From: a virus | Reading direction: 5' to 3' (one strand) | Length of the DNA: 64,000 bases | IMG/VR virus record: IMGVR_UViG_3300021184_000001 | Location: 34,854-98,853 of that record | In this document: positions 1,320-50,464 of the stretch, one piece after another | How positions within the stretch are numbered: position 1 is the first letter of the stretch | Layout: each line of letters begins with the position of its first letter | Translations under genes and position numbers: made by a program | Notes under the pieces: generated by a model | Databases searched by the model: none | The model's input: only the letters and a program-made list of their open reading frames with translations | What the model was told of the DNA's origin: nothing

Positions 1320-1685
1320 GCCGATAAGGGAGGTCAGGAGCATGATGCCCAGGGGCACTTCGGTGCCGCTGGGGATGCGCCAGCGCAACCGGTGGCGCAG
1401 GCGAATCCGGTCGCTGATTGGGTACGGTGACGGTTTCTCGCTGTGTTGTCCCACGCGCGGAGTTTAACCAAGCATCGTCGTGAAAGCAGCAGCCGCGAAC
1501 GCCAAGACGAGACTTATGACGGTGGTGACGGTAAGGATGCTGACCATGGCCCCAATGGCCGACCACGCTATCCTGCAAAACGGTCCAATACGGTTCACAC
1601 GTATCATCATGTCACAGTGATCGTGGGTGTTTTGTCTCCTTTTGTGAAGGGGCCGTTGCAATCCGATCGGGCTAGACTCGCCGAT

Positions 1686-2219
1686 ATGAGCAGCACTGTT
1701 ACCGCTTCCCAGCGACCGGAGACACGTATCGAAATCCCAGCCGAGGTCGCCGCCGCGCGCGACCTCCTCGAAGAGCAGTGGCTGACCCCCCAGGAGTTCG
1801 CCGCCGACCGCACCCTCGGATGGTACAGCCGCGACACCCTGCAGAAGGCGGCCAACGCCAACACCTGCGGGCTCAAAGACGCCCGGCGCGAACGCACCCG
1901 CAAGGTCATCGCCGGTCGCGAGCAGATCATCTACGAATACCCGAAATGGCGCATCCAGCAGTTCCTCAACTACGGGATGGACGGCTCGCCACCAGGCCCC
2001 AGGCGCCGCGCCCGCCGAGACATCCGCTTCGTCGGCGACCCCACCGCCGATCAACTCGCCGCCATGACCGGCATGAACGCCACCCAAGTCCTCCACCACG
2101 TCAACGAAGGCGACCTCGAAGCGGTCCTGCACCCCACAGAGGACCGCATCCTCTTTCTCGACGCCGAATCAGCCCAGCGCTGGATCAACCGCCAGGCACA
2201 CCGCAACGTCAAGCAGTGA
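1686..2219 (+). CDS. HTH DNA-binding protein (excisionase/HTH_17-like C-terminal domain)
   Basis: PTADQLAAMTGMNATQVLHHVNEGDLEA pattern; start chosen at ATG 1686, 7 nt after TAGACT (1673-1678). Confidence 0.6.
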   Translation: MSSTVTASQRPETRIEIPAEVAAARDLLEEQWLTPQEFAADRTLGWYSRDTLQKAANANTCGLKDARRERTRKVIAGREQIIYEYPKWRIQQFLNYGMDGSPPGPRRRARRDIRFVGDPTADQLAAMTGMNATQVLHHVNEGDLEAVLHPTEDRILFLDAESAQRWINRQAHRNVKQ

Positions 2220-2238
2220 ACGCGACGCTCCCGGCACG

Positions 2239-2272
2239 GATCGGGCCTGTTACTGCGATGACGGGCCCGATC
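2239..2272 (+). terminator. 14-bp stem-loop downstream of HTH gene
   Basis: GATCGGGCCTGTTA / TGACGGGCCCGATC with two G:U pairs; no U tract. Confidence 0.5.
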
Positions 2273-2352
2273 AACATGTGTAGGATCTTCATGAGCGACG
2301 AGCGGGGGAAGACCCGATTGTCCAGGTAAAACAACACAACAGAGGAGGGAGC

Positions 2353-2739
2353 ATGAGCATGGAGACGGATGCTCAGGCTTACACCGGCCTGCCGCTGGCG
2401 ATAGACGCCGAGCAGGAGGCCATGATGGCGTCGATCGCCGCCGAGACCGGCGCGCAAGTCGAGCAGTACCGTGCGGCGCTGACGGAGGCAGCCCGCAACG
2501 GTACGCTCAGCGACGAACGCGGCGGTCAGATCGCCGACGAGGTCCTGAAGCTCGCCGCAGCGAGCTCCTCGGCGGTCGCACTGATCGCGTTCGAGCGCGC
2601 GCTGCACACGGCCCGCATCGGGGCGAAGGCCTGGTCGAACGGCAAGACCGACCGCGACAGCAAGGTGATGGCCCTGGAAAGCCTCGCCGCCGACGCCGCC
2701 GCGCGCCTGCAGGTCGACCTGGCCTGCCTCAGATACTGA
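2353..2739 (+). CDS. Hypothetical protein, helical
   Basis: 128 aa; strong RBS GAGGAGGG; coding-like codon use. Confidence 0.7.
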   Translation: MSMETDAQAYTGLPLAIDAEQEAMMASIAAETGAQVEQYRAALTEAARNGTLSDERGGQIADEVLKLAAASSSAVALIAFERALHTARIGAKAWSNGKTDRDSKVMALESLAADAAARLQVDLACLRY

Positions 2740-2748
2740 GCACCAGAC

Positions 2749-2774
2749 GCCGGGCCCCCACGCGGGGGCCCGGC
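2749..2774 (+). terminator. GC-rich hairpin
   Basis: GCCGGGCCCCC-ACGC-GGGGGCCCGGC, perfect 11-bp stem. Confidence 0.55.
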
Positions 2775-2788
2775 CCGAACGGAGGCAC

Positions 2789-3088
2789 ATGCTGTTCGTC
2801 CGCATCCCGGCCGATTTCAGGCCCCACATCTCACCGCGCCTGTTCAACATCAGCGAACCCGACCCCGACACCGGGAAGATGCACCCGCTCGCCGAGCACT
2901 ACTGCCCGGTCTGCGACGAACCCCTGGTTGTGGACGGACGCATCGTGCTCGTCCCGGTCGGCATCAGCCCCGAGGACCGCAAAGACAGCGGCTGGAGCAA
3001 CGCGGGCTGCGTCGCCGTGCACGTCGCCTGCACCGGCTACACCGAAACCGAAGTCGAACAGCTCCATACGGAGATGCTGCAATCCTGA
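2789..3088 (+). CDS. Small putative Zn-binding protein
   Basis: HYCPVC and CVAVHVAC; RBS GGAGG. Confidence 0.65.
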   Translation: MLFVRIPADFRPHISPRLFNISEPDPDTGKMHPLAEHYCPVCDEPLVVDGRIVLVPVGISPEDRKDSGWSNAGCVAVHVACTGYTETEVEQLHTEMLQS

Positions 3089-3100
3089 GAGGAAGTCGCC

Positions 3101-3388
3101 ATGGCCATCTTCCCGCCGCACCTGGCCGCCTCGGCCACCGCCGAAGGCCTGCGACTCAGCCCGTTCGAGTGGATCGAGAACGACCTCCCCGGCCGCGAAG
3201 CCGCCTCCGGGACCGCCGTCATCGGCGACTACGACCGCTTGGAGGCCTTTTTGGACCGGTTTGTGGCCGCGCGCATCGGCGCCGACGGCCATGTGCGATC
3301 GCTCCTCGCCAAGCCTGACCCCGGCACCGTCGAATCAGTCCTATACTTCCCCGGTTACTACCTCGACGGGGAAGGGGAACTCACGTGA
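3101..3388 (+). CDS. Hypothetical protein
   Basis: RBS GAGAGGAAG; tightly packed operon. Confidence 0.65.
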   Translation: MAIFPPHLAASATAEGLRLSPFEWIENDLPGREAASGTAVIGDYDRLEAFLDRFVAARIGADGHVRSLLAKPDPGTVESVLYFPGYYLDGEGELT

Positions 3389-3591
3389 ACACACCAGCGC
3401 AGCCCTCCGATGGCGACCGGGACCGGGAGGCCATCGCGCGTGCCCTGGACGCCTCCGAGCAGTACTTCATGGAGCGCGACCGGATGAACGCCATGGTGCA
3501 CCTGGCGCCGGTGCGCTATTCGCCGGTCACCGAACTGGTGCACCAGGGGCGCCAAGCCGCCGCCCGGCTGAAGGCGGCAGCGGATGCCTGA
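3385..3591 (+). CDS. Hypothetical protein
   Basis: GTGA overlap with upstream gene; 68 aa. Confidence 0.6.
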   Translation: MNTPAQPSDGDRDREAIARALDASEQYFMERDRMNAMVHLAPVRYSPVTELVHQGRQAAARLKAAADA

Positions 3592-26435: not shown

Positions 26436-26656
26436 GCGACGTCCCCCCTGGCGCGATGCACGATGAAGCGCACCGTCCCGATACCCACCAGCAGCAGCGG
26501 CCATGCCAGCGCGTACAGCAGAGCGAAGCCGACGCCCATGGCCAGCCGCGCGGAAGTGGTGACGTCAAATCCACTGGCGACGGCGTTGCGGTAGAGCATG
26601 CGTGCGGTGAATAGCATGGCAACGACGTAGACCACGCTCACGATCAGCGGGATCAT
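26432..26656 (-). CDS. Small two-TM membrane protein
   Basis: 74 aa, two hydrophobic helices, overlaps both neighbours. Confidence 0.6.
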   Translation of the reverse strand: MIPLIVSVVYVVAMLFTARMLYRNAVASGFDVTTSARLAMGVGFALLYALAWPLLLVGIGTVRFIVHRARGDVA

Positions 26657-27450
26657 GGCGTCACCGGTCCGGTGCGCCAGACCTGCGAGGTGTCGACGTC
26701 AGGCGACCACACGGACGGGTTCGAGGTGACGCCATACGGGTTGATCGAAGCGATCCATCGATCGACCCGGGCGATCCCGGTGAAGTGAATGATGCCGTCC
26801 TCTCCGGACCCGATGGTCGAATCCAGCTGCATGCTCAAGCCTTCACGGTTGATGCTGGTGACACCGGAAGGCAGCGTGCCGCACCCGCTGCCAGCTGGTG
26901 GGCATTCTTGGAGCTTGCGGCAGGCGAGGATGCTGACGGCACGGATGGCGTCCAGGCCTGGCGGGGTACCGCGCAGGTAGGTGACGACGAGACCATCCTC
27001 AGTGCAGTAGTCCTGGCACGCGGGCCAGCAGCCGCCGCAGCGGGCGAGACGGTTGCGCGTCAGCAGCTTCCACTCATCGCTGTCCAGGGCGACACCGTCG
27101 ACGGTGACCGACTCGATCGAGTAGACCGGCCCCTGCAGGGTTACGGTGCACAGCTGCGTACACGAGCAGGTGTCGCGGCATCCGCATTTGGAGTTGAACC
27201 AGGAGCCATTGACGTCCCGGTAGGGTCGCATCCAGTACGCCTCCAGCGGACGCGCCACACACTGGTCCAGACAGGGCAGTTCGGTGGTGCGGCACAGGCC
27301 GATCACCCCGGCGACCGCACGCCAGAGCTCGACCGTGGCCAGCCACTGGGCCTCGAAATGGGCCTCGTCCCAATCGTCTTCGTCTGGAGGCCACCCGGGG
27401 CAGCAGACGGGATCGATCGGCCACGGGTCGCACGGGTACAACGCTGACAT
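26653..27450 (-). CDS. Head-to-tail adaptor, Cys-rich
   Basis: LWRAVAG, VTLQGPVYSIESVTVDG, GVTSINREGLSM; 18 Cys in 265 aa. Confidence 0.7.
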   Translation of the reverse strand: MSALYPCDPWPIDPVCCPGWPPDEDDWDEAHFEAQWLATVELWRAVAGVIGLCRTTELPCLDQCVARPLEAYWMRPYRDVNGSWFNSKCGCRDTCSCTQLCTVTLQGPVYSIESVTVDGVALDSDEWKLLTRNRLARCGGCWPACQDYCTEDGLVVTYLRGTPPGLDAIRAVSILACRKLQECPPAGSGCGTLPSGVTSINREGLSMQLDSTIGSGEDGIIHFTGIARVDRWIASINPYGVTSNPSVWSPDVDTSQVWRTGPVTP

Positions 27451-27490
27451 GACAAACCCCCTTCACCGCCTTACGTGACTATATATGACA

Positions 27491-27499
27491 AAACAGACA
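27491..27499. promoter_or_regulatory. AANCRGACA box upstream of adaptor gene (and of divergent mazG)
   Basis: AAACAGACA; TATAGT on minus strand at 27478-27483. Confidence 0.65.
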
Positions 27500-27521
27500 A
27501 TTAAGGAGATGTGCCCAGGGC

Positions 27522-27932
27522 GTGAGCGTCTACTACGATGCGAATGTGAATCTTGCTGACCTTTCGCATCGTGCGATGACCGTTGCCGACCTGTACGACG
27601 AGTACCATCGCCGCAAGCGCGGACGCACCTGGAGCCGATCCGATTACGCGCTCGGTCTTCTCGGCGACCTTGGCGACCTTGCCAAGCTCGTCATGATCGC
27701 CGAAGACATCCGGGACGGCACCCCCGACAAGTCCGCGCTCGAACACGAGCTGGCCGACTGCCTGTGGTCGGTCCTAGTTCTGGCACAGCGCTTCGATGTG
27801 GACCTGGAGACGGCATTCGCCACCACCATGGATCAGCTGGAAGTCCGGGTGAAGGGCAACATCGCCGCACATCGACTACGCTCGGAGACGCGCAGCGGGG
27901 TGGAGCAGCTCGGTAGCTCAACAGGCTCATAA
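27522..27932 (+). CDS. mazG: MazG-like nucleotide pyrophosphohydrolase
   Basis: LGLLGDLGDLAK and LEHELADCLWSVLVLAQRFDVDL. Confidence 0.8.
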   Translation: MSVYYDANVNLADLSHRAMTVADLYDEYHRRKRGRTWSRSDYALGLLGDLGDLAKLVMIAEDIRDGTPDKSALEHELADCLWSVLVLAQRFDVDLETAFATTMDQLEVRVKGNIAAHRLRSETRSGVEQLGSSTGS

Positions 27933-27967
27933 CCTGAAGGTCGGCGGTTCAAATCCGCTCCCCGCGA
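27894..27967 (+). tRNA. tRNA-Met(CAT), initiator-like with variant anticodon stem
   Basis: Cloverleaf: GCGGGG/CCCCGC acceptor with 1:72 mismatch, GAGC/GCTC D stem, CTCATAA loop (CAT 27928-27930), GGCGG-TTCAAAT-CCGCT T arm; no encoded CCA. Confidence 0.85.
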
Positions 27968-27971
27968 CAAG

Positions 27972-28001
27972 GCGGCCCTGACGTGCACTCGTCAGGGCCG
28001 C
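27972..28001. terminator. Hairpin after tRNA-Met
   Basis: GCGGCCCTGACG / CGTCAGGGCCGC, perfect 12-bp stem between convergent units. Confidence 0.7.
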
Positions 28002-28016
28002 TTCGAATTCCCAGTG

Positions 28017-28769
28017 CTAGTCGGTGAACGGAAGCCACACGAACTGCGTCGTATTGGTCTCAGGGTCGTCGGTATACGACAGCTCCACCATGTACTCGTC
28101 GTCATACGCATACGTATGCGTCGCGGTCGTGCCCACGACGGCGGCGGTGGTGACAGTGGCACCATCGCCCCAGTCGACAGTGAGCGTGTCTTCGGGTGCT
28201 GCCGAGGCGGCCGTGAGCACTTCCAGCTCCACAGTCATCCGCGAGACGTCGGAGGTGTCCTCGGCGAGGCTAAAACCCGGATCGTTGGCCACCGCCGTCA
28301 CCACCACATCCTGCACCACTGACAGTGCCGACCAATGGTCGGTGACCCGGATCGGGTAGGTGCCCGGGGCGAAGAGCCGCTCGACGTACTTGTTCGGCTC
28401 GGCCAGCACATCTTCGCTGTCCGTCGGTGTCCAGTCCACCGTGTACCGGCCGACGACGGGCATCTCCGGATCGTTGAACGCAACCCGGATCTTCTGCGTA
28501 TTCGCCGGAGCCGAGATGGTCACGTTCGGGACTGTCGCGTCCAGCACGTTCAGCAGCAGCGACGTCACCGGTTCGGTCTCGCCGACCAGCGTCACCGACA
28601 GCGCATACGGGCCTGGCGCCGCATAGGTGTAGGGATAGACGTCGTCGGCGTCCTTGGCGATGGTGTTGCCGTCCCCGAAGGACAGCACGTATGCCTGCGG
28701 CACATCGATGACGCGGGCCTTACCCTTGCGCGGTACCGTACGGTCCGGGTACCACTTGATACTCGGCAT
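28017..28769 (-). CDS. PKD/Ig-like repeat protein
   Basis: LSFGDG..YTYAAPGPY, YTVDW..FAPGTY, VDWGDG..HTYAYDDEY. Confidence 0.75.
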   Translation of the reverse strand: MPSIKWYPDRTVPRKGKARVIDVPQAYVLSFGDGNTIAKDADDVYPYTYAAPGPYALSVTLVGETEPVTSLLLNVLDATVPNVTISAPANTQKIRVAFNDPEMPVVGRYTVDWTPTDSEDVLAEPNKYVERLFAPGTYPIRVTDHWSALSVVQDVVVTAVANDPGFSLAEDTSDVSRMTVELEVLTAASAAPEDTLTVDWGDGATVTTAAVVGTTATHTYAYDDEYMVELSYTDDPETNTTQFVWLPFTD

Positions 28770-28802
28770 ATACCCCTCCAAAAGGGACTATAAGTTGAAA
28801 CC

Positions 28803-28843
28803 GGGGGTGCCCGGCCCCCTCGAAAAGAAAGCCGGGCACCCCC
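28803..28843. terminator. Intergenic hairpin
   Basis: GGGGGTGCCCGGC / GCCGGGCACCCCC, 13-bp stem. Confidence 0.55.
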
Positions 28844-28850
28844 GCGTCGC

Positions 28851-29738
28851 TTACGCCGTGGTCGCAGTGACCGGCGCGGTGTAGTCGGAGTCGGAGAACG
28901 ACACGTCGTCGCCGTTGGCACGCACCCGGAAGTCGTACTCGGTGGCGGTGACCAGGCCCGTGACGGTGGTCGACGGCGTGACCGGCTCGGTCGCGAAGTC
29001 GGTCCACTCGGTCTCGACGCTCGTCTTGTACTGGACGTGGTACGACACGGCGTTCGTGACCGCGTCCCAGGTCAGCGGCGCAGTCGTGGCCGTCATGGTG
29101 CCCGTCGCCAAGTTCGTGGGAACCGCGAGCTCCGGCAGCGAGGACTCCGTAGTGGCCGTAACCGTGGCAGTCCACGGCGATTTCGCGAACGCGTTGGTCG
29201 AGTCGGTCGCGCGGATGCGGATGGTGTACGCCGTGTCCGGGGTCAGTCCCGTCAGCGTGAACGGGCTGGCAGTCGCCTGCACCTCCAACCAGGTCGTCCC
29301 CGAATCCGTCGAGTACGACACCGTGTATCCGTTGGCGTTCGGCGACGCGGTCCACGTCAGCGGAATGGTGGTGTCGGTCGGCGTCCCCGCCGCCAACGCC
29401 GTCGGCGCCGCCAGCGGCGTCAGCGGCGTGCAGGTGTCCACGTTGATCGGGTCAACGTCCTCGTCGTAGATGTAGTACGAGACGTACTCGGCGCTTCCGG
29501 TCGGCGGGCACGTGATGGTTTCCCCGTTGTTGCCGGTGAACGGCAGCGGCCCGTACTCGGTGCACAGGTCGTTGGGGATGGTCCAGCGCCCGAGCGTCTG
29601 TCCCGTCGGCGAGACGCAGCACGTACCGAACTGGACGGCGACGTCGGTCATCCCGTTCGCTGCGCGAGCCCAGCAGTGCAGCTGCTGCGCCAGTTCCTTC
29701 TTTGCCGTCTGATCGATCGGCTGGAGCACGATAGGCAT
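28851..29738 (-). CDS. Cys-rich N-terminal domain + 2 fibronectin type III repeats
   Basis: LAAPT..LTW..Y.V.Y..L.P.T.Y.IR repeats; N-terminus shared with 30117-32342. Confidence 0.85.
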   Translation of the reverse strand: MPIVLQPIDQTAKKELAQQLHCWARAANGMTDVAVQFGTCCVSPTGQTLGRWTIPNDLCTEYGPLPFTGNNGETITCPPTGSAEYVSYYIYDEDVDPINVDTCTPLTPLAAPTALAAGTPTDTTIPLTWTASPNANGYTVSYSTDSGTTWLEVQATASPFTLTGLTPDTAYTIRIRATDSTNAFAKSPWTATVTATTESSLPELAVPTNLATGTMTATTAPLTWDAVTNAVSYHVQYKTSVETEWTDFATEPVTPSTTVTGLVTATEYDFRVRANGDDVSFSDSDYTAPVTATTA

Positions 29739-49505: not shown

Positions 49506-49587
49506 GGATCGGTGCCCGAGCGGCCAAAAGGGGCTGGCTGTAAACCAGCTGCATCACGCATCGCAGGTTCAAATCCTGCCCGGTCCA
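49506..49587 (+). tRNA. tRNA-Tyr(GTA)
   Basis: GGATCGG/CCGGTCC acceptor, GCTGG-CTGTAAA-CCAGC anticodon arm (GTA 49540-49542), long variable arm, GCAGG-TTCAAAT-CCTGC; no encoded CCA. Confidence 0.92.
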
Positions 49588-49588
49588 C

Positions 49589-50464
49589 ATGAACAACCCA
49601 CCCGACCCGAACGTCGTCCGGTTCTTCCGTCTTATCCTCACCGACCCGGCCGCCGCCGAGACCGAACTCGACCAGTGGTCCAAGAACGAACGCGCCATGC
49701 TCCGCTCCTGCGCCGCCCAACAAGCCACCATGTCCGGCTTCCAAGAAATGCCGAAACCCGCGCAGATCCGTGCCCTCGCCTCCCGCATGCGCCGCATCTT
49801 CAACGAACCCATCGACTCGTTCGCGCTGGCCTCGGTCATCGAAAGCTGCTTCACCCCGGACTCGGTGGCCGCGCAGCGACGCCTGGACTCGATCCACCCG
49901 CAGGTCATGCGGCGTATCGCATTCCTCCTACCGCACGGTATCTATTCTGGCGCCGCTGTCCCGGCAGCGGACGTTGACCGGTGGGTGGACAAGGCTGTAA
50001 ACCATTTCCTGGTGGGACGCCAGTCGATGATCGAGGCGTTCGGGGAGGACTACGCCGAGTTCTACCGGACAGTCTGCATCAACCCCAGCGGCGCCGCACG
50101 CCTGCTGTTCGAAGACGACACGAAGACGCCGCACCAACGATCGATCATGGTCTACAACGCCGCCAGCGGCGCCCTCCACATACTTTTCGAGGGGCGCAGG
50201 CCCGACCGCGATGAACGCGACCGCCTCGCGAAAGACATCGAGTTGCTCCACGGCGAGTTCCCTGTCGAGGCACTGGAAGAGATCATCGAAGCGTTCGCCG
50301 ATCCGACGGCGCAGGGCCACTGGAGGGATGAAACTGTCCACTTGTCAGTGGCGACACTGCTGCCCTCCGTGATGGTGCACCGGCTGGGGATGACGACGAT
50401 GAGCATCAACGACTTCATGCGCTCCTGCAGGAAAGCCGAGAAGGCCTTCCACGAGCTCGGCTAG
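49589..50464 (+). CDS. Hypothetical protein with internal duplication
   Basis: 291 aa; two similar halves of about 140 aa. Confidence 0.65.
   Translation: MNNPPDPNVVRFFRLILTDPAAAETELDQWSKNERAMLRSCAAQQATMSGFQEMPKPAQIRALASRMRRIFNEPIDSFALASVIESCFTPDSVAAQRRLDSIHPQVMRRIAFLLPHGIYSGAAVPAADVDRWVDKAVNHFLVGRQSMIEAFGEDYAEFYRTVCINPSGAARLLFEDDTKTPHQRSIMVYNAASGALHILFEGRRPDRDERDRLAKDIELLHGEFPVEALEEIIEAFADPTAQGHWRDETVHLSVATLLPSVMVHRLGMTTMSINDFMRSCRKAEKAFHELG

What the first reader, a model, noticed from the sequence alone, without database searches (positions are those of the whole stretch)
27522..28001. MazG ORF ends inside a tRNA-Met and uses its anticodon loop as stop codon
Seen: the last 13 codons of mazG are the 5' half of the tRNA (27894-27930) and the TAA is in the CTCATAA loop. 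The pair forms a + strand island with its own terminator inside the - strand structural operon. Inference: RNase P maturation of the tRNA would leave a non-stop mazG mRNA, so tRNA and MazG output would be mutually exclusive per transcript. Anticodon-nuclease cleavage would also hit the mRNA. This may be a coupled anti-defence module.
Basis: partly seen in the sequence, partly recalled or inferred. Interest (0 to 1): 0.68.

Follow-up and report, generated by a model that had tools for sequence, protein, structure and literature searches.

The report
Phage MazG gene ending inside tRNA-Met
In a 138-kb soil actinophage a small MazG-type nucleotide hydrolase gene really does run 39 bases into a working initiator-like tRNA-Met gene and stops in its anticodon loop, but related phages keep the tRNA and let mazG decay, so the overlap looks like a tolerated by-product of tight packing and not a designed switch.

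Summary
ORF 27522-27932 (+) is a Pfam MazG protein. Its last 12 sense codons and its TAA lie inside tRNA-Met(CAT) 27894-27968. The pair is a + strand island between - strand head-tail adaptor and tail genes, followed by a strong hairpin.

The tRNA is real and initiator-like. It scores 56.5 bits in Rfam, shows compensatory changes in four homologous phages, never has a Watson-Crick 1:72 pair, and is nearest to the E. coli metZWV genes.

The tRNA-encoded tail lies outside the conserved MazG core, which ends near residue 117. Cellular homologues have tails of variable length.

Comparative data argue against an obligatory coupled module:
- One metagenome fragment (L009) keeps the overlap and the same loop TAA, although its tail is 6 codons longer.
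- Two nearly complete relatives (G001, L017) keep the promoter region, tRNA and hairpin but only a mazG 3' relic.
- Other relatives lack the island altogether.

Any frame entering this tRNA stops in or just after it, so the loop TAA is a 1-in-3 outcome.

RNase P cleavage would indeed leave non-stop mazG mRNA, but "mutually exclusive per transcript" is overstated and the anti-defence coupling is untested. No RNA or read data could be obtained.

The scan has noted ORFs ending in tRNAs on other DNA, with other genes and causes.

The parts
27451..27521 (+). Divergent intergenic region: AT-rich element (about 27475-27500, ACTATATATGACAAAACAGACA) and SD AAGGAG 27503-27508. Presumed promoter and leader of the island.
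   Evidence: The sequence is shown. The element aligns with the region upstream of the tRNA in G001 and is visible in L017. No sigma-70 consensus match was found, and the motif is not repeated elsewhere in the genome, so promoter function is inferred only.
27522..27932 (+). mazG-like NTP pyrophosphohydrolase gene, 136 aa from GTG 27522 (alternative starts GTG 27546 and ATG 27576). The conserved core ends near residue 117; residues 118-136 are a tail.
   Evidence: Evidence comes and from 860 homologues, mostly Streptomyces/Nocardia proteins of about 113 aa at 50-60% identity. Forty-two columns are invariant, including D49, D52, E76 and D79. The nearest solved structures are DCTPP1/RS21-C6 and YpjD. 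The AF2 model is a four-helix protein with pLDDT 65 then 52 over the last 16 residues.
27894..27932 (+). Overlap: 12 sense codons plus the TAA of mazG, which equal tRNA positions 1-38 (acceptor 5' strand, D arm, anticodon stem 5' strand and loop).
   Evidence: The same overlap and the same stop occur in L009.
27894..27968 (+). Initiator-like tRNA-Met(CAT) with no encoded CCA. Pair 1:72 is A/G mismatched, 11:24 is A:U, and the anticodon stem has A27/A43 unpaired, A29:U41, then two G:C pairs.
   Evidence: ARAGORN and Rfam at 56.5 bits. The cloverleaf is kept in 4 phages, with changes on both sides at 4 pairs and 93% of cells paired against about 43% when the structure is slid. The tRNA is 87.8% identical to four places per E. 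coli genome, including the triple tRNA-Met cluster beside amiC. That this cluster is metZWV is from my own knowledge.
27971..27996 (+). G+C-rich hairpin (13-bp stem) right after the tRNA; probable terminator without a U-tract.
   Evidence: It folds at -30.5 kcal/mol, z = -5.3. The stem is conserved in G001 with loop changes, and similar hairpins follow the tRNA in L017 and L009. It does not match the U-tail terminator pattern.
26653..27450 (-). Head-tail adaptor gene, left neighbour on the opposite strand.
   Evidence: phrog_783, E 4.6e-53.
28017..28781 (-). PKD-repeat structural gene, right neighbour on the opposite strand, convergent with the island.
   Evidence: faint PKD_4 in the public call.

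Best explanation
The island is a small accessory ('moron'-like) transcription unit set against the direction of the structural genes. It consists of a promoter/leader, mazG, an initiator-like tRNA-Met and a hairpin terminator. In the common ancestor of this phage group mazG had no stop codon of its own before the tRNA. Translation therefore runs on through the tRNA's 5' half and ends at the first in-frame stop, the UAA formed by anticodon base 36 plus bases 37 and 38. This adds a 12-residue junk tail to a MazG core that tolerates variable tails.

The tRNA is the constrained and selected cargo, and the protein tail simply follows the tRNA sequence. Both products come from one transcript (inferred). 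Ribosomes can complete MazG only on RNA that RNase P has not yet cut. Cleavage at the tRNA 5' end releases the tRNA precursor and leaves an mRNA without stop codon or hairpin, which would be decayed or rescued by tmRNA (inferred, not shown).

The overlap therefore probably caps MazG output as a side effect. It is tolerated and was not selected as a switch.
For: - The overlap is real and inherited. W and the diverged fragment L009 differ strongly in the mazG core (69% nucleotide identity) but little in the tRNA (71/75 identical), and both end at the loop TAA.
- The tail is not part of the family. Conservation among 18 homologues stops near residue 117, and their tails range from 0 to about 60 residues. 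Model confidence is low there.
- The tRNA is under structural selection, with compensatory changes in 4 pairs.
- The tRNA is kept where mazG is lost. G001 keeps it at 74/75 identity with mazG reduced to about 26 relic codons. L017 keeps the tRNA with covariation, has only a mazG relic, and has no MazG anywhere in a 99%-complete genome.
- In L017 the relic enters the tRNA one base out of frame and stops at the D-loop TAG. This shows that the frame carries no constraint once MazG is gone.
- All three frames stop in or near the tRNA.
- The W mazG itself still looks functional. All 42 family-invariant residues are present, and dN/dS is about 0.37 against L009 over 36 codons.
- Cellular homologues are not linked to tRNAs.
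Against: - The overlap has persisted in two lineages despite an 18-nt in-frame length change in the tail. This persistence fits neutrality but also fits some benefit.
- No transcript, processing or protein data exist.
- The promoter is inferred only from conservation.
- Only four related loci exist, one of them a 1.4-kb fragment. G001 and L017 probably represent a single loss event, because both also share an extra 534-aa gene.
Confidence: 0.65

Rival explanations
1. Selected coupling. The overlap is a device that makes MazG synthesis and tRNA maturation compete. Under this reading RNase P processing, or cleavage of the anticodon loop by a host nuclease, switches MazG off through non-stop mRNA. 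The pair then acts together as a counter-defence unit supporting translation initiation.
For: - The overlap and the same stop codon are kept in W and L009 although the tail length differs by 6 codons, in frame.
- Each part has an anti-defence precedent. Phage MazG-like Atd1 depletes (p)ppGpp (bioRxiv 10.1101/2022.06.09.495361). Phage tRNAs are proposed to escape tRNA nucleases, and the reference list of PMC10264068 cites work on VapC toxins that cleave initiator tRNA.
- This tRNA's anticodon-arm 31-mer occurs in 0 of 185,579 cellular species genomes but in 4 other viral contigs.
Against: - The tRNA is retained without mazG in G001 and L017, and the island is absent in L003/L004.
- The tail is unconserved.
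- The stop in the loop is a 1-in-3 outcome.
- L009 has His at the family-invariant E76.
- The substrate of this DCTPP1/YpjD-like MazG is unknown.
- There are no expression data.
Confidence: 0.12
2. mazG in this phage is already a dispensable passenger on its way to loss. The unit works essentially as a tRNA gene with a long translated leader, and MazG contributes little or nothing.
For: - mazG decayed in G001 and L017.
- L009 has changed an invariant catalytic-motif residue.
- The SD lies 13 nt from the GTG start, and the start itself is ambiguous.
- Processing of the tRNA would destroy the mRNA.
Against: - The W copy is a full open frame with all 42 invariant family residues.
- The four-helix core is confidently modelled.
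- dN/dS is about 0.37 against L009, although over only 36 codons.
Confidence: 0.18
3. Artefact: a sequencing or assembly error hides an earlier stop codon, or the tRNA is a pseudo-tRNA.
For: All records are metagenome assemblies, and no reads could be laid on the region.
Against: - A second assembly is identical.
- The independent, diverged contig L009 has the same open frame into the tRNA.
- The tRNA scores far above the Rfam threshold and shows covariation.
Confidence: 0.03

Closest known systems
Bacterial mRNA-tRNA co-transcripts (E. coli tyrU-tufB and secG-leuU operons; from my own knowledge)
   Same: A protein gene and a tRNA share one promoter and one terminator, and the tRNA is cut out of the mRNA-bearing transcript by RNase P and 3' nucleases.
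   Different: In those operons the coding sequence has its own stop codon and a spacer. Here the last 12 codons and the stop lie inside the tRNA, so processing removes the stop.
Mitochondrial 'tRNA punctuation', t-elements and stop-less mRNAs (t-elements shaping plant mitochondrial mRNA ends: PMC1920247; animal mtDNA overlaps from my own knowledge)
   Same: tRNAs or tRNA-like structures abut or overlap coding regions, and their excision defines mRNA ends, sometimes leaving mRNAs without a complete stop codon.
   Different: That is an organellar system with polyadenylation-completed stops and dedicated rescue factors. No such completion is expected in a phage of actinobacteria.
DCTPP1/RS21-C6 and B. 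subtilis YpjD, single-domain all-alpha MazG-type NTP pyrophosphohydrolases; phage MazG-like Atd1
   Same: Shared Pfam MazG domain. The profile match to DCTPP1 has E 1.3e-6 and covers both acidic motifs. The protein is small and four-helical. Atd1 shows that phage MazG-like enzymes can act as counter-defence (bioRxiv 10.1101/2022.06.09.495361).
   Different: The first motif reads DxxD where DCTPP1 reads ExxE. The substrate is unknown, and no relation to Atd1 was tested.
Bacterial initiator tRNA (E. coli metZWV/metY)
   Same: 87.8% identity to four loci per E. coli genome. Pair 1:72 is not Watson-Crick in any of the four phage copies, 11:24 is A:U, and the loop is CUCAUAA.
   Different: The anticodon stem has only two of the three consecutive G:C pairs (A29:U41) and an unpaired 27/43. 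This arm sequence was found in no cellular genome searched.
Other ORFs ending in tRNA genes noted by this scan (serine integrases with att sites in tRNAs, homing-endonuclease cassettes, a HEPN RNase with a tRNA mimic)
   Same: A protein's tail and stop codon are read off a tRNA sequence as a consequence of how the DNA was joined.
   Different: Those cases involve mobility or toxin genes, often antisense to the tRNA. Here a metabolic-type enzyme lies on the same strand as an intact tRNA, with no integrase or endonuclease nearby.

Membership tests
MazG / all-alpha NTP pyrophosphohydrolase (PF03819) | Domain match above Pfam's curated threshold | tested here: met
   28.1 bits against a cutoff of 22, residues 60-110. 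There are 860 homologues named MazG domain proteins.
MazG / all-alpha NTP pyrophosphohydrolase (PF03819) | Two acidic metal-binding motifs (ExxE ... ExxD type) on the helices | tested here: inconclusive
   D49xxD52 and E76xxD79 are invariant in the subfamily and align with the ExxE and ExxD of DCTPP1. The first motif carries Asp where the canonical motif has Glu. Activity was not assayed.
MazG / all-alpha NTP pyrophosphohydrolase (PF03819) | Four-helix all-alpha fold | tested here: met
   The AF2 model has helices 11-33, 39-64, 70-90 and 95-131, with mean pLDDT 79.7. No fold search was run.
tRNA (RF00005) | Cloverleaf scoring above the Rfam gathering score, with pairs kept through compensatory change | tested here: met
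   56.5 bits against 29. Of 21 pairs, 4 show changes on both sides across 4 phages, and 93% of cells are paired against about 43% when the structure is slid.
Bacterial initiator tRNA-fMet | No Watson-Crick pair at 1:72 | tested here: met
   A/G in W and G001, G-U in L009, U-G in L017.
Bacterial initiator tRNA-fMet | Three consecutive G:C pairs at the bottom of the anticodon stem (29-31:39-41) | tested here: not met
   The pairs are A29:U41, G30:C40 and G31:C39 in all four copies. The tRNA is therefore called initiator-like and not filed as a canonical initiator.
Bacterial initiator tRNA-fMet | A11:U24 pair; overall similarity to known initiator genes | tested here: met
   The A:U pair in the D stem is invariant. 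The best E. coli matches are four loci per genome, including the triple cluster beside amiC. That this cluster is metZWV is from my own knowledge.
mRNA-tRNA co-transcription unit with processing-dependent mRNA end | Same strand, no intervening promoter or terminator, single terminator after the tRNA | tested here: inconclusive
   The geometry fits and the upstream element is conserved. However, no consensus promoter was found, and an internal promoter was not excluded experimentally.
mRNA-tRNA co-transcription unit with processing-dependent mRNA end | RNase P cleavage yields mature tRNA and a stop-less mRNA; tmRNA tagging of the product | not testable with these tools
No RNA or proteome data are available.

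The most novel reading that the evidence does not exclude
The overlap may be a functional kinetic switch. Under this reading MazG can be completed only while the initiator-like tRNA is still unprocessed and intact. RNase P maturation, or host nuclease cleavage in the anticodon loop right at the stop codon, converts the message into a non-stop mRNA. MazG supply would then be tied to the fate of a phage-specific initiator tRNA variant, and the two would act together to keep translation initiation going in a host under stringent or toxin stress.
Probability: 0.1. Interest if true: 0.7.

Novelty: new variant of a known kind. Interest (0 to 1): 0.35.

Why it matters
A proven same-strand overlap between a real protein gene and a working tRNA is unusual outside organelles. 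My literature searches found no description of one in a phage.

It offers a simple natural test case for how translation, tRNA folding, RNase P cleavage and ribosome rescue interact on one RNA.

It also carries a practical lesson for annotation. Pipelines that forbid CDS-tRNA overlaps would delete or truncate a genuine gene here.

The comparative evidence nevertheless says the arrangement is most likely a tolerated accident, so the biological weight is modest. The more promising lead is the tRNA itself: an initiator-like variant whose anticodon arm was found only in phages.

Tried and rejected
- **Close phage relatives in GenBank:** none found by DNA or by the MazG protein.
- **Single-protein scan of IMG/VR for MazG:** nothing. 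Relatives were reached through the adaptor gene and tRNA patterns instead.
- **Consensus scans:** no promoter or terminator matches in 26500-29000. The upstream AT-rich motif is not a repeated phage promoter.
- **Search with the 40-residue C-terminal region:** among 5.8 billion proteins it returned only the phage's own protein. This is weak evidence of rarity, because pipelines often mask tRNAs and the search covers only proteins of 74-238 aa.
- **Annotated CDSs under tRNA-Met matches in phages Pan5 and D479:** uninformative. One has a probably over-extended start, the other a mislabelled tRNA.
- **A 160-aa ORF crossing tRNA-Val elsewhere in the genome:** a spurious alternative frame of a TM-protein gene that ends before the tRNA.
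- **MFE folding of the 181-nt mRNA 3' end:** it did not reproduce the full cloverleaf (z = -1.1), which is usual for tRNAs. No conclusion was drawn.
- **Literature searches for phage or bacterial CDSs ending in tRNAs, or RNase P-generated non-stop mRNAs:** no direct precedent found.
- **Not run:** the complex prediction, fold-search, atlas and representative-library searches, because the open question is RNA-level and comparative.

Full report
**What is there**

The window is part of a 138-kb IMG/VR virus record with 65% G+C. On the + strand an ORF runs from 27522 to 27932, giving 136 aa from a GTG start. It matches Pfam MazG at 28.1 bits against a cutoff of 22.

ARAGORN finds tRNA-Met(CAT) at 27894-27968, and Rfam scores it at 56.5 bits, E 3.9e-11. 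Codon 125 begins at tRNA base 1. The last 12 sense codons (SGVEQLGSSTGS) and the TAA at 27930-27932 are therefore tRNA positions 1-38, and the TAA is the last anticodon base plus A37 and A38 of the CTCATAA loop.

Both neighbours lie on the - strand. They are a head-tail adaptor at 26653-27450 (phrog_783, E 4.6e-53) and PKD/FN3 tail proteins from 28017 onwards, with a tape measure gene further along. A 13-bp G+C-rich hairpin follows the tRNA at 27971-27996, folding at -30.5 kcal/mol with z = -5.3.

**The two genes taken separately**

*MazG.* It has 860 homologues. The nearest are proteins of about 113 aa from Streptomyces, Nocardia and Kitasatospora at 50-60% identity. An alignment of 18 of them shows 42 invariant columns, including D49, D52, E76 and D79. 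Conservation ends near residue 117 of the phage protein, and beyond that the homologues carry tails of 0 to about 60 unrelated residues. The closest solved structures by profile are dCTP pyrophosphatase 1 (RS21-C6) and B. subtilis YpjD. An AlphaFold model gives four helices, with confidence falling to 65 and then 52 over the last 16 residues. The tRNA-encoded peptide is thus an appendage outside the family core.

The start codon is ambiguous. GTG 27522 has AAGGAG 13 nt upstream. GTG 27546 would give an N-terminus that matches the homologues. The public gene call uses ATG 27576.

*The tRNA.* It is initiator-like. It is 87.8% identical to four loci in every E. coli genome, including the triple tRNA-Met cluster beside amiC; that this is metZWV is from my own knowledge. 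It has A11:U24 and no Watson-Crick 1:72 pair. Its anticodon stem, however, has only two of the three canonical G:C pairs. No CCA is encoded.

**Relatives**

GenBank phages gave nothing close. Searching IMG/VR with the adaptor protein, and viral and metagenome contigs with tRNA patterns, gave the following set.

| Relative | Size and relatedness | State of the island |
|---|---|---|
| G001 (L002) | 142 kb, adaptor 91% identical | tRNA 74/75 identical, hairpin and upstream AT-rich element kept. mazG is only a relic of about 26 codons, with a 12-nt in-frame deletion, directly abutting the tRNA. No other MazG match in the genome. |
| L017 (G005) | 141 kb, 99% complete, adaptor 88% identical | Also has only a relic, whose frame enters the tRNA one base out of phase and stops at the D-loop TAG. 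No MazG anywhere in the genome. |
| L009 | 1.4-kb metagenome fragment of a more distant relative | The contig begins inside mazG. The ORF runs into the tRNA and stops at the same loop TAA, although the tail before the tRNA is 6 codons longer. |
| L003/L004 | adaptor 80% identical | Lack the island; a 338-aa FN3-like gene occupies the site. |

G001 and L017 also share an extra 534-aa repeat-rich gene between the adaptor and the island. They probably descend from a single mazG loss.

In L009 the mazG core is 69% identical to the window at the nucleotide level, with dN/dS of about 0.37 over 36 codons. The family-invariant E76 is His there. The tRNA is 71/75 identical.

Cellular homologues of this MazG have no tRNA next to them.

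**The tRNA is the constrained partner**

Across the four phage copies the cloverleaf is kept. There are changes on both sides at four pairs (1:72, 6:67 and two T-stem pairs). In total 93% of cells are paired, against about 43% when the structure is slid. The tRNA changes far more slowly than mazG and survives its loss.

**Is the stop in the loop more than chance?**

All three frames that enter this tRNA terminate in or just after it: TAA in the loop (27930), TAG in the D loop (27914) and TGA in the hairpin (27979). Once a gene upstream lacks its own stop, ending at the loop TAA is a 1-in-3 outcome. Every tRNA-Met with a CAUAA loop offers that TAA.

In the two loci where MazG coding sequence is present the loop frame is used. 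In the L017 relic it is not.

The two in-frame length changes (18 nt and 12 nt) would both be multiples of three by chance about once in nine, so they carry little weight. The overlap itself is uncommon. None of the other eight tRNAs of this genome is entered by a credible gene. A search with the 40 C-terminal residues returned only the phage's own protein, although gene callers often mask tRNAs.

**Mechanism**

*Shown:* the geometry, the reality of both genes, the inheritance of the junction, and the dispensability of mazG.

*Inferred:* one transcript starts in the conserved AT-rich intergenic region. This region has no consensus promoter and the motif is unique in the genome. The transcript ends at the hairpin. 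Ribosomes translating to the UAA must unfold the acceptor, D and anticodon arms. Once they have left, the tRNA can fold and be cut by RNase P at 27893/27894. That cut strips the mRNA of its stop codon and its 3' hairpin, so later ribosomes would stall at the end and be rescued (tmRNA or alternative factors), and the mRNA would be open to 3' decay.

A transcript can therefore give MazG first and a tRNA afterwards, but not the other way round. 'Mutually exclusive per transcript' is too strong.

The most economical reading is that the arrangement arose when the stop and spacer were lost or never existed, and that it is tolerated because MazG accepts variable tails. I give this reading 0.65.

The rivals are:
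- A selected coupling or anti-defence switch (0.12). It is supported only by persistence in two lineages and by separate precedents for phage MazG-like Atd1 (bioRxiv 10.1101/2022.06.09.495361) and for nuclease-evading phage tRNAs (PMC10264068).
- mazG as a decaying passenger (0.18).
- An artefact (0.03). This is contradicted by the identical ENA assembly and by the independent L009 contig.

**Comparison with what is known**

The unit works like bacterial mRNA-tRNA co-transcripts (tufB and secG-leuU operons; my own knowledge). In its overlap it works like mitochondrial tRNA punctuation and plant mitochondrial t-elements (PMC1920247). It is not a member of those systems.

My literature searches found no phage or bacterial case of a coding sequence ending inside a same-strand tRNA.

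Earlier notes of this scan record ORFs ending in tRNAs on other DNA. Those involve integrase attachment sites, homing-endonuclease cassettes and a HEPN RNase with a tRNA mimic, and they too were mostly explained by how the DNA was joined. I did not test those claims.

**Verdict**

The feature is real, unusual and inherited, and a neat natural experiment for translation versus tRNA processing. The comparative evidence favours a tolerated accident over a designed module. I score interest at 0.35 and class it as a new variant of a known kind.

Noticed in passing
window 27912-27942; L017, L018, L019: The tRNA's D-arm-to-variable-loop 31-mer, which includes the unusual anticodon stem with A29:U41 and unpaired 27/43, has no exact match in one genome each of 185,579 cellular species. 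It occurs in four other IMG/VR contigs. Two of these are AT-rich, unrelated large phages (127 and 193 kb) that also carry tRNA genes with a CTA anticodon, which ARAGORN labels tRNA-Pyl. It looks like a phage-specific initiator tRNA variant.
   Followed up: partly
L002 4340-5944 (+); L017 about 1360-3470: G001 and L017 carry an extra 534-aa gene with tandem DITALxGD-type repeats (tail-fibre-like) between the adaptor gene and the tRNA island. The window phage lacks it.
   Followed up: no
L003/L004 4914-5930 (+): In the relatives whose adaptor is 80% identical, the tRNA island and the 28017-28781 PKD gene are replaced by a 338-aa FN3-like gene. The site between the adaptor and the tail decoration genes is a hot spot for gene exchange.
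   Followed up: no
L009 1396-1217 (-): The MazG of the fragment L009 has His at the position of the family-invariant Glu76 and Ser at Cys80, so that copy may be inactive or altered.
   Followed up: no
window 49506-49588: The second tRNA of the window, tRNA-Tyr(GTA) of 83 nt, is followed at the very next base by the first possible start of a 291-aa ORF (49589-50464). The true start was not examined.
   Followed up: no
genome 24257-24857 (upstream of the window), L020: A cluster of six tRNA genes (Val, Leu, Arg, Gly, Thr, Pro) lies downstream of a 109-aa membrane-protein gene. Arg, Gly and Thr abut with no spacer.
   Followed up: no
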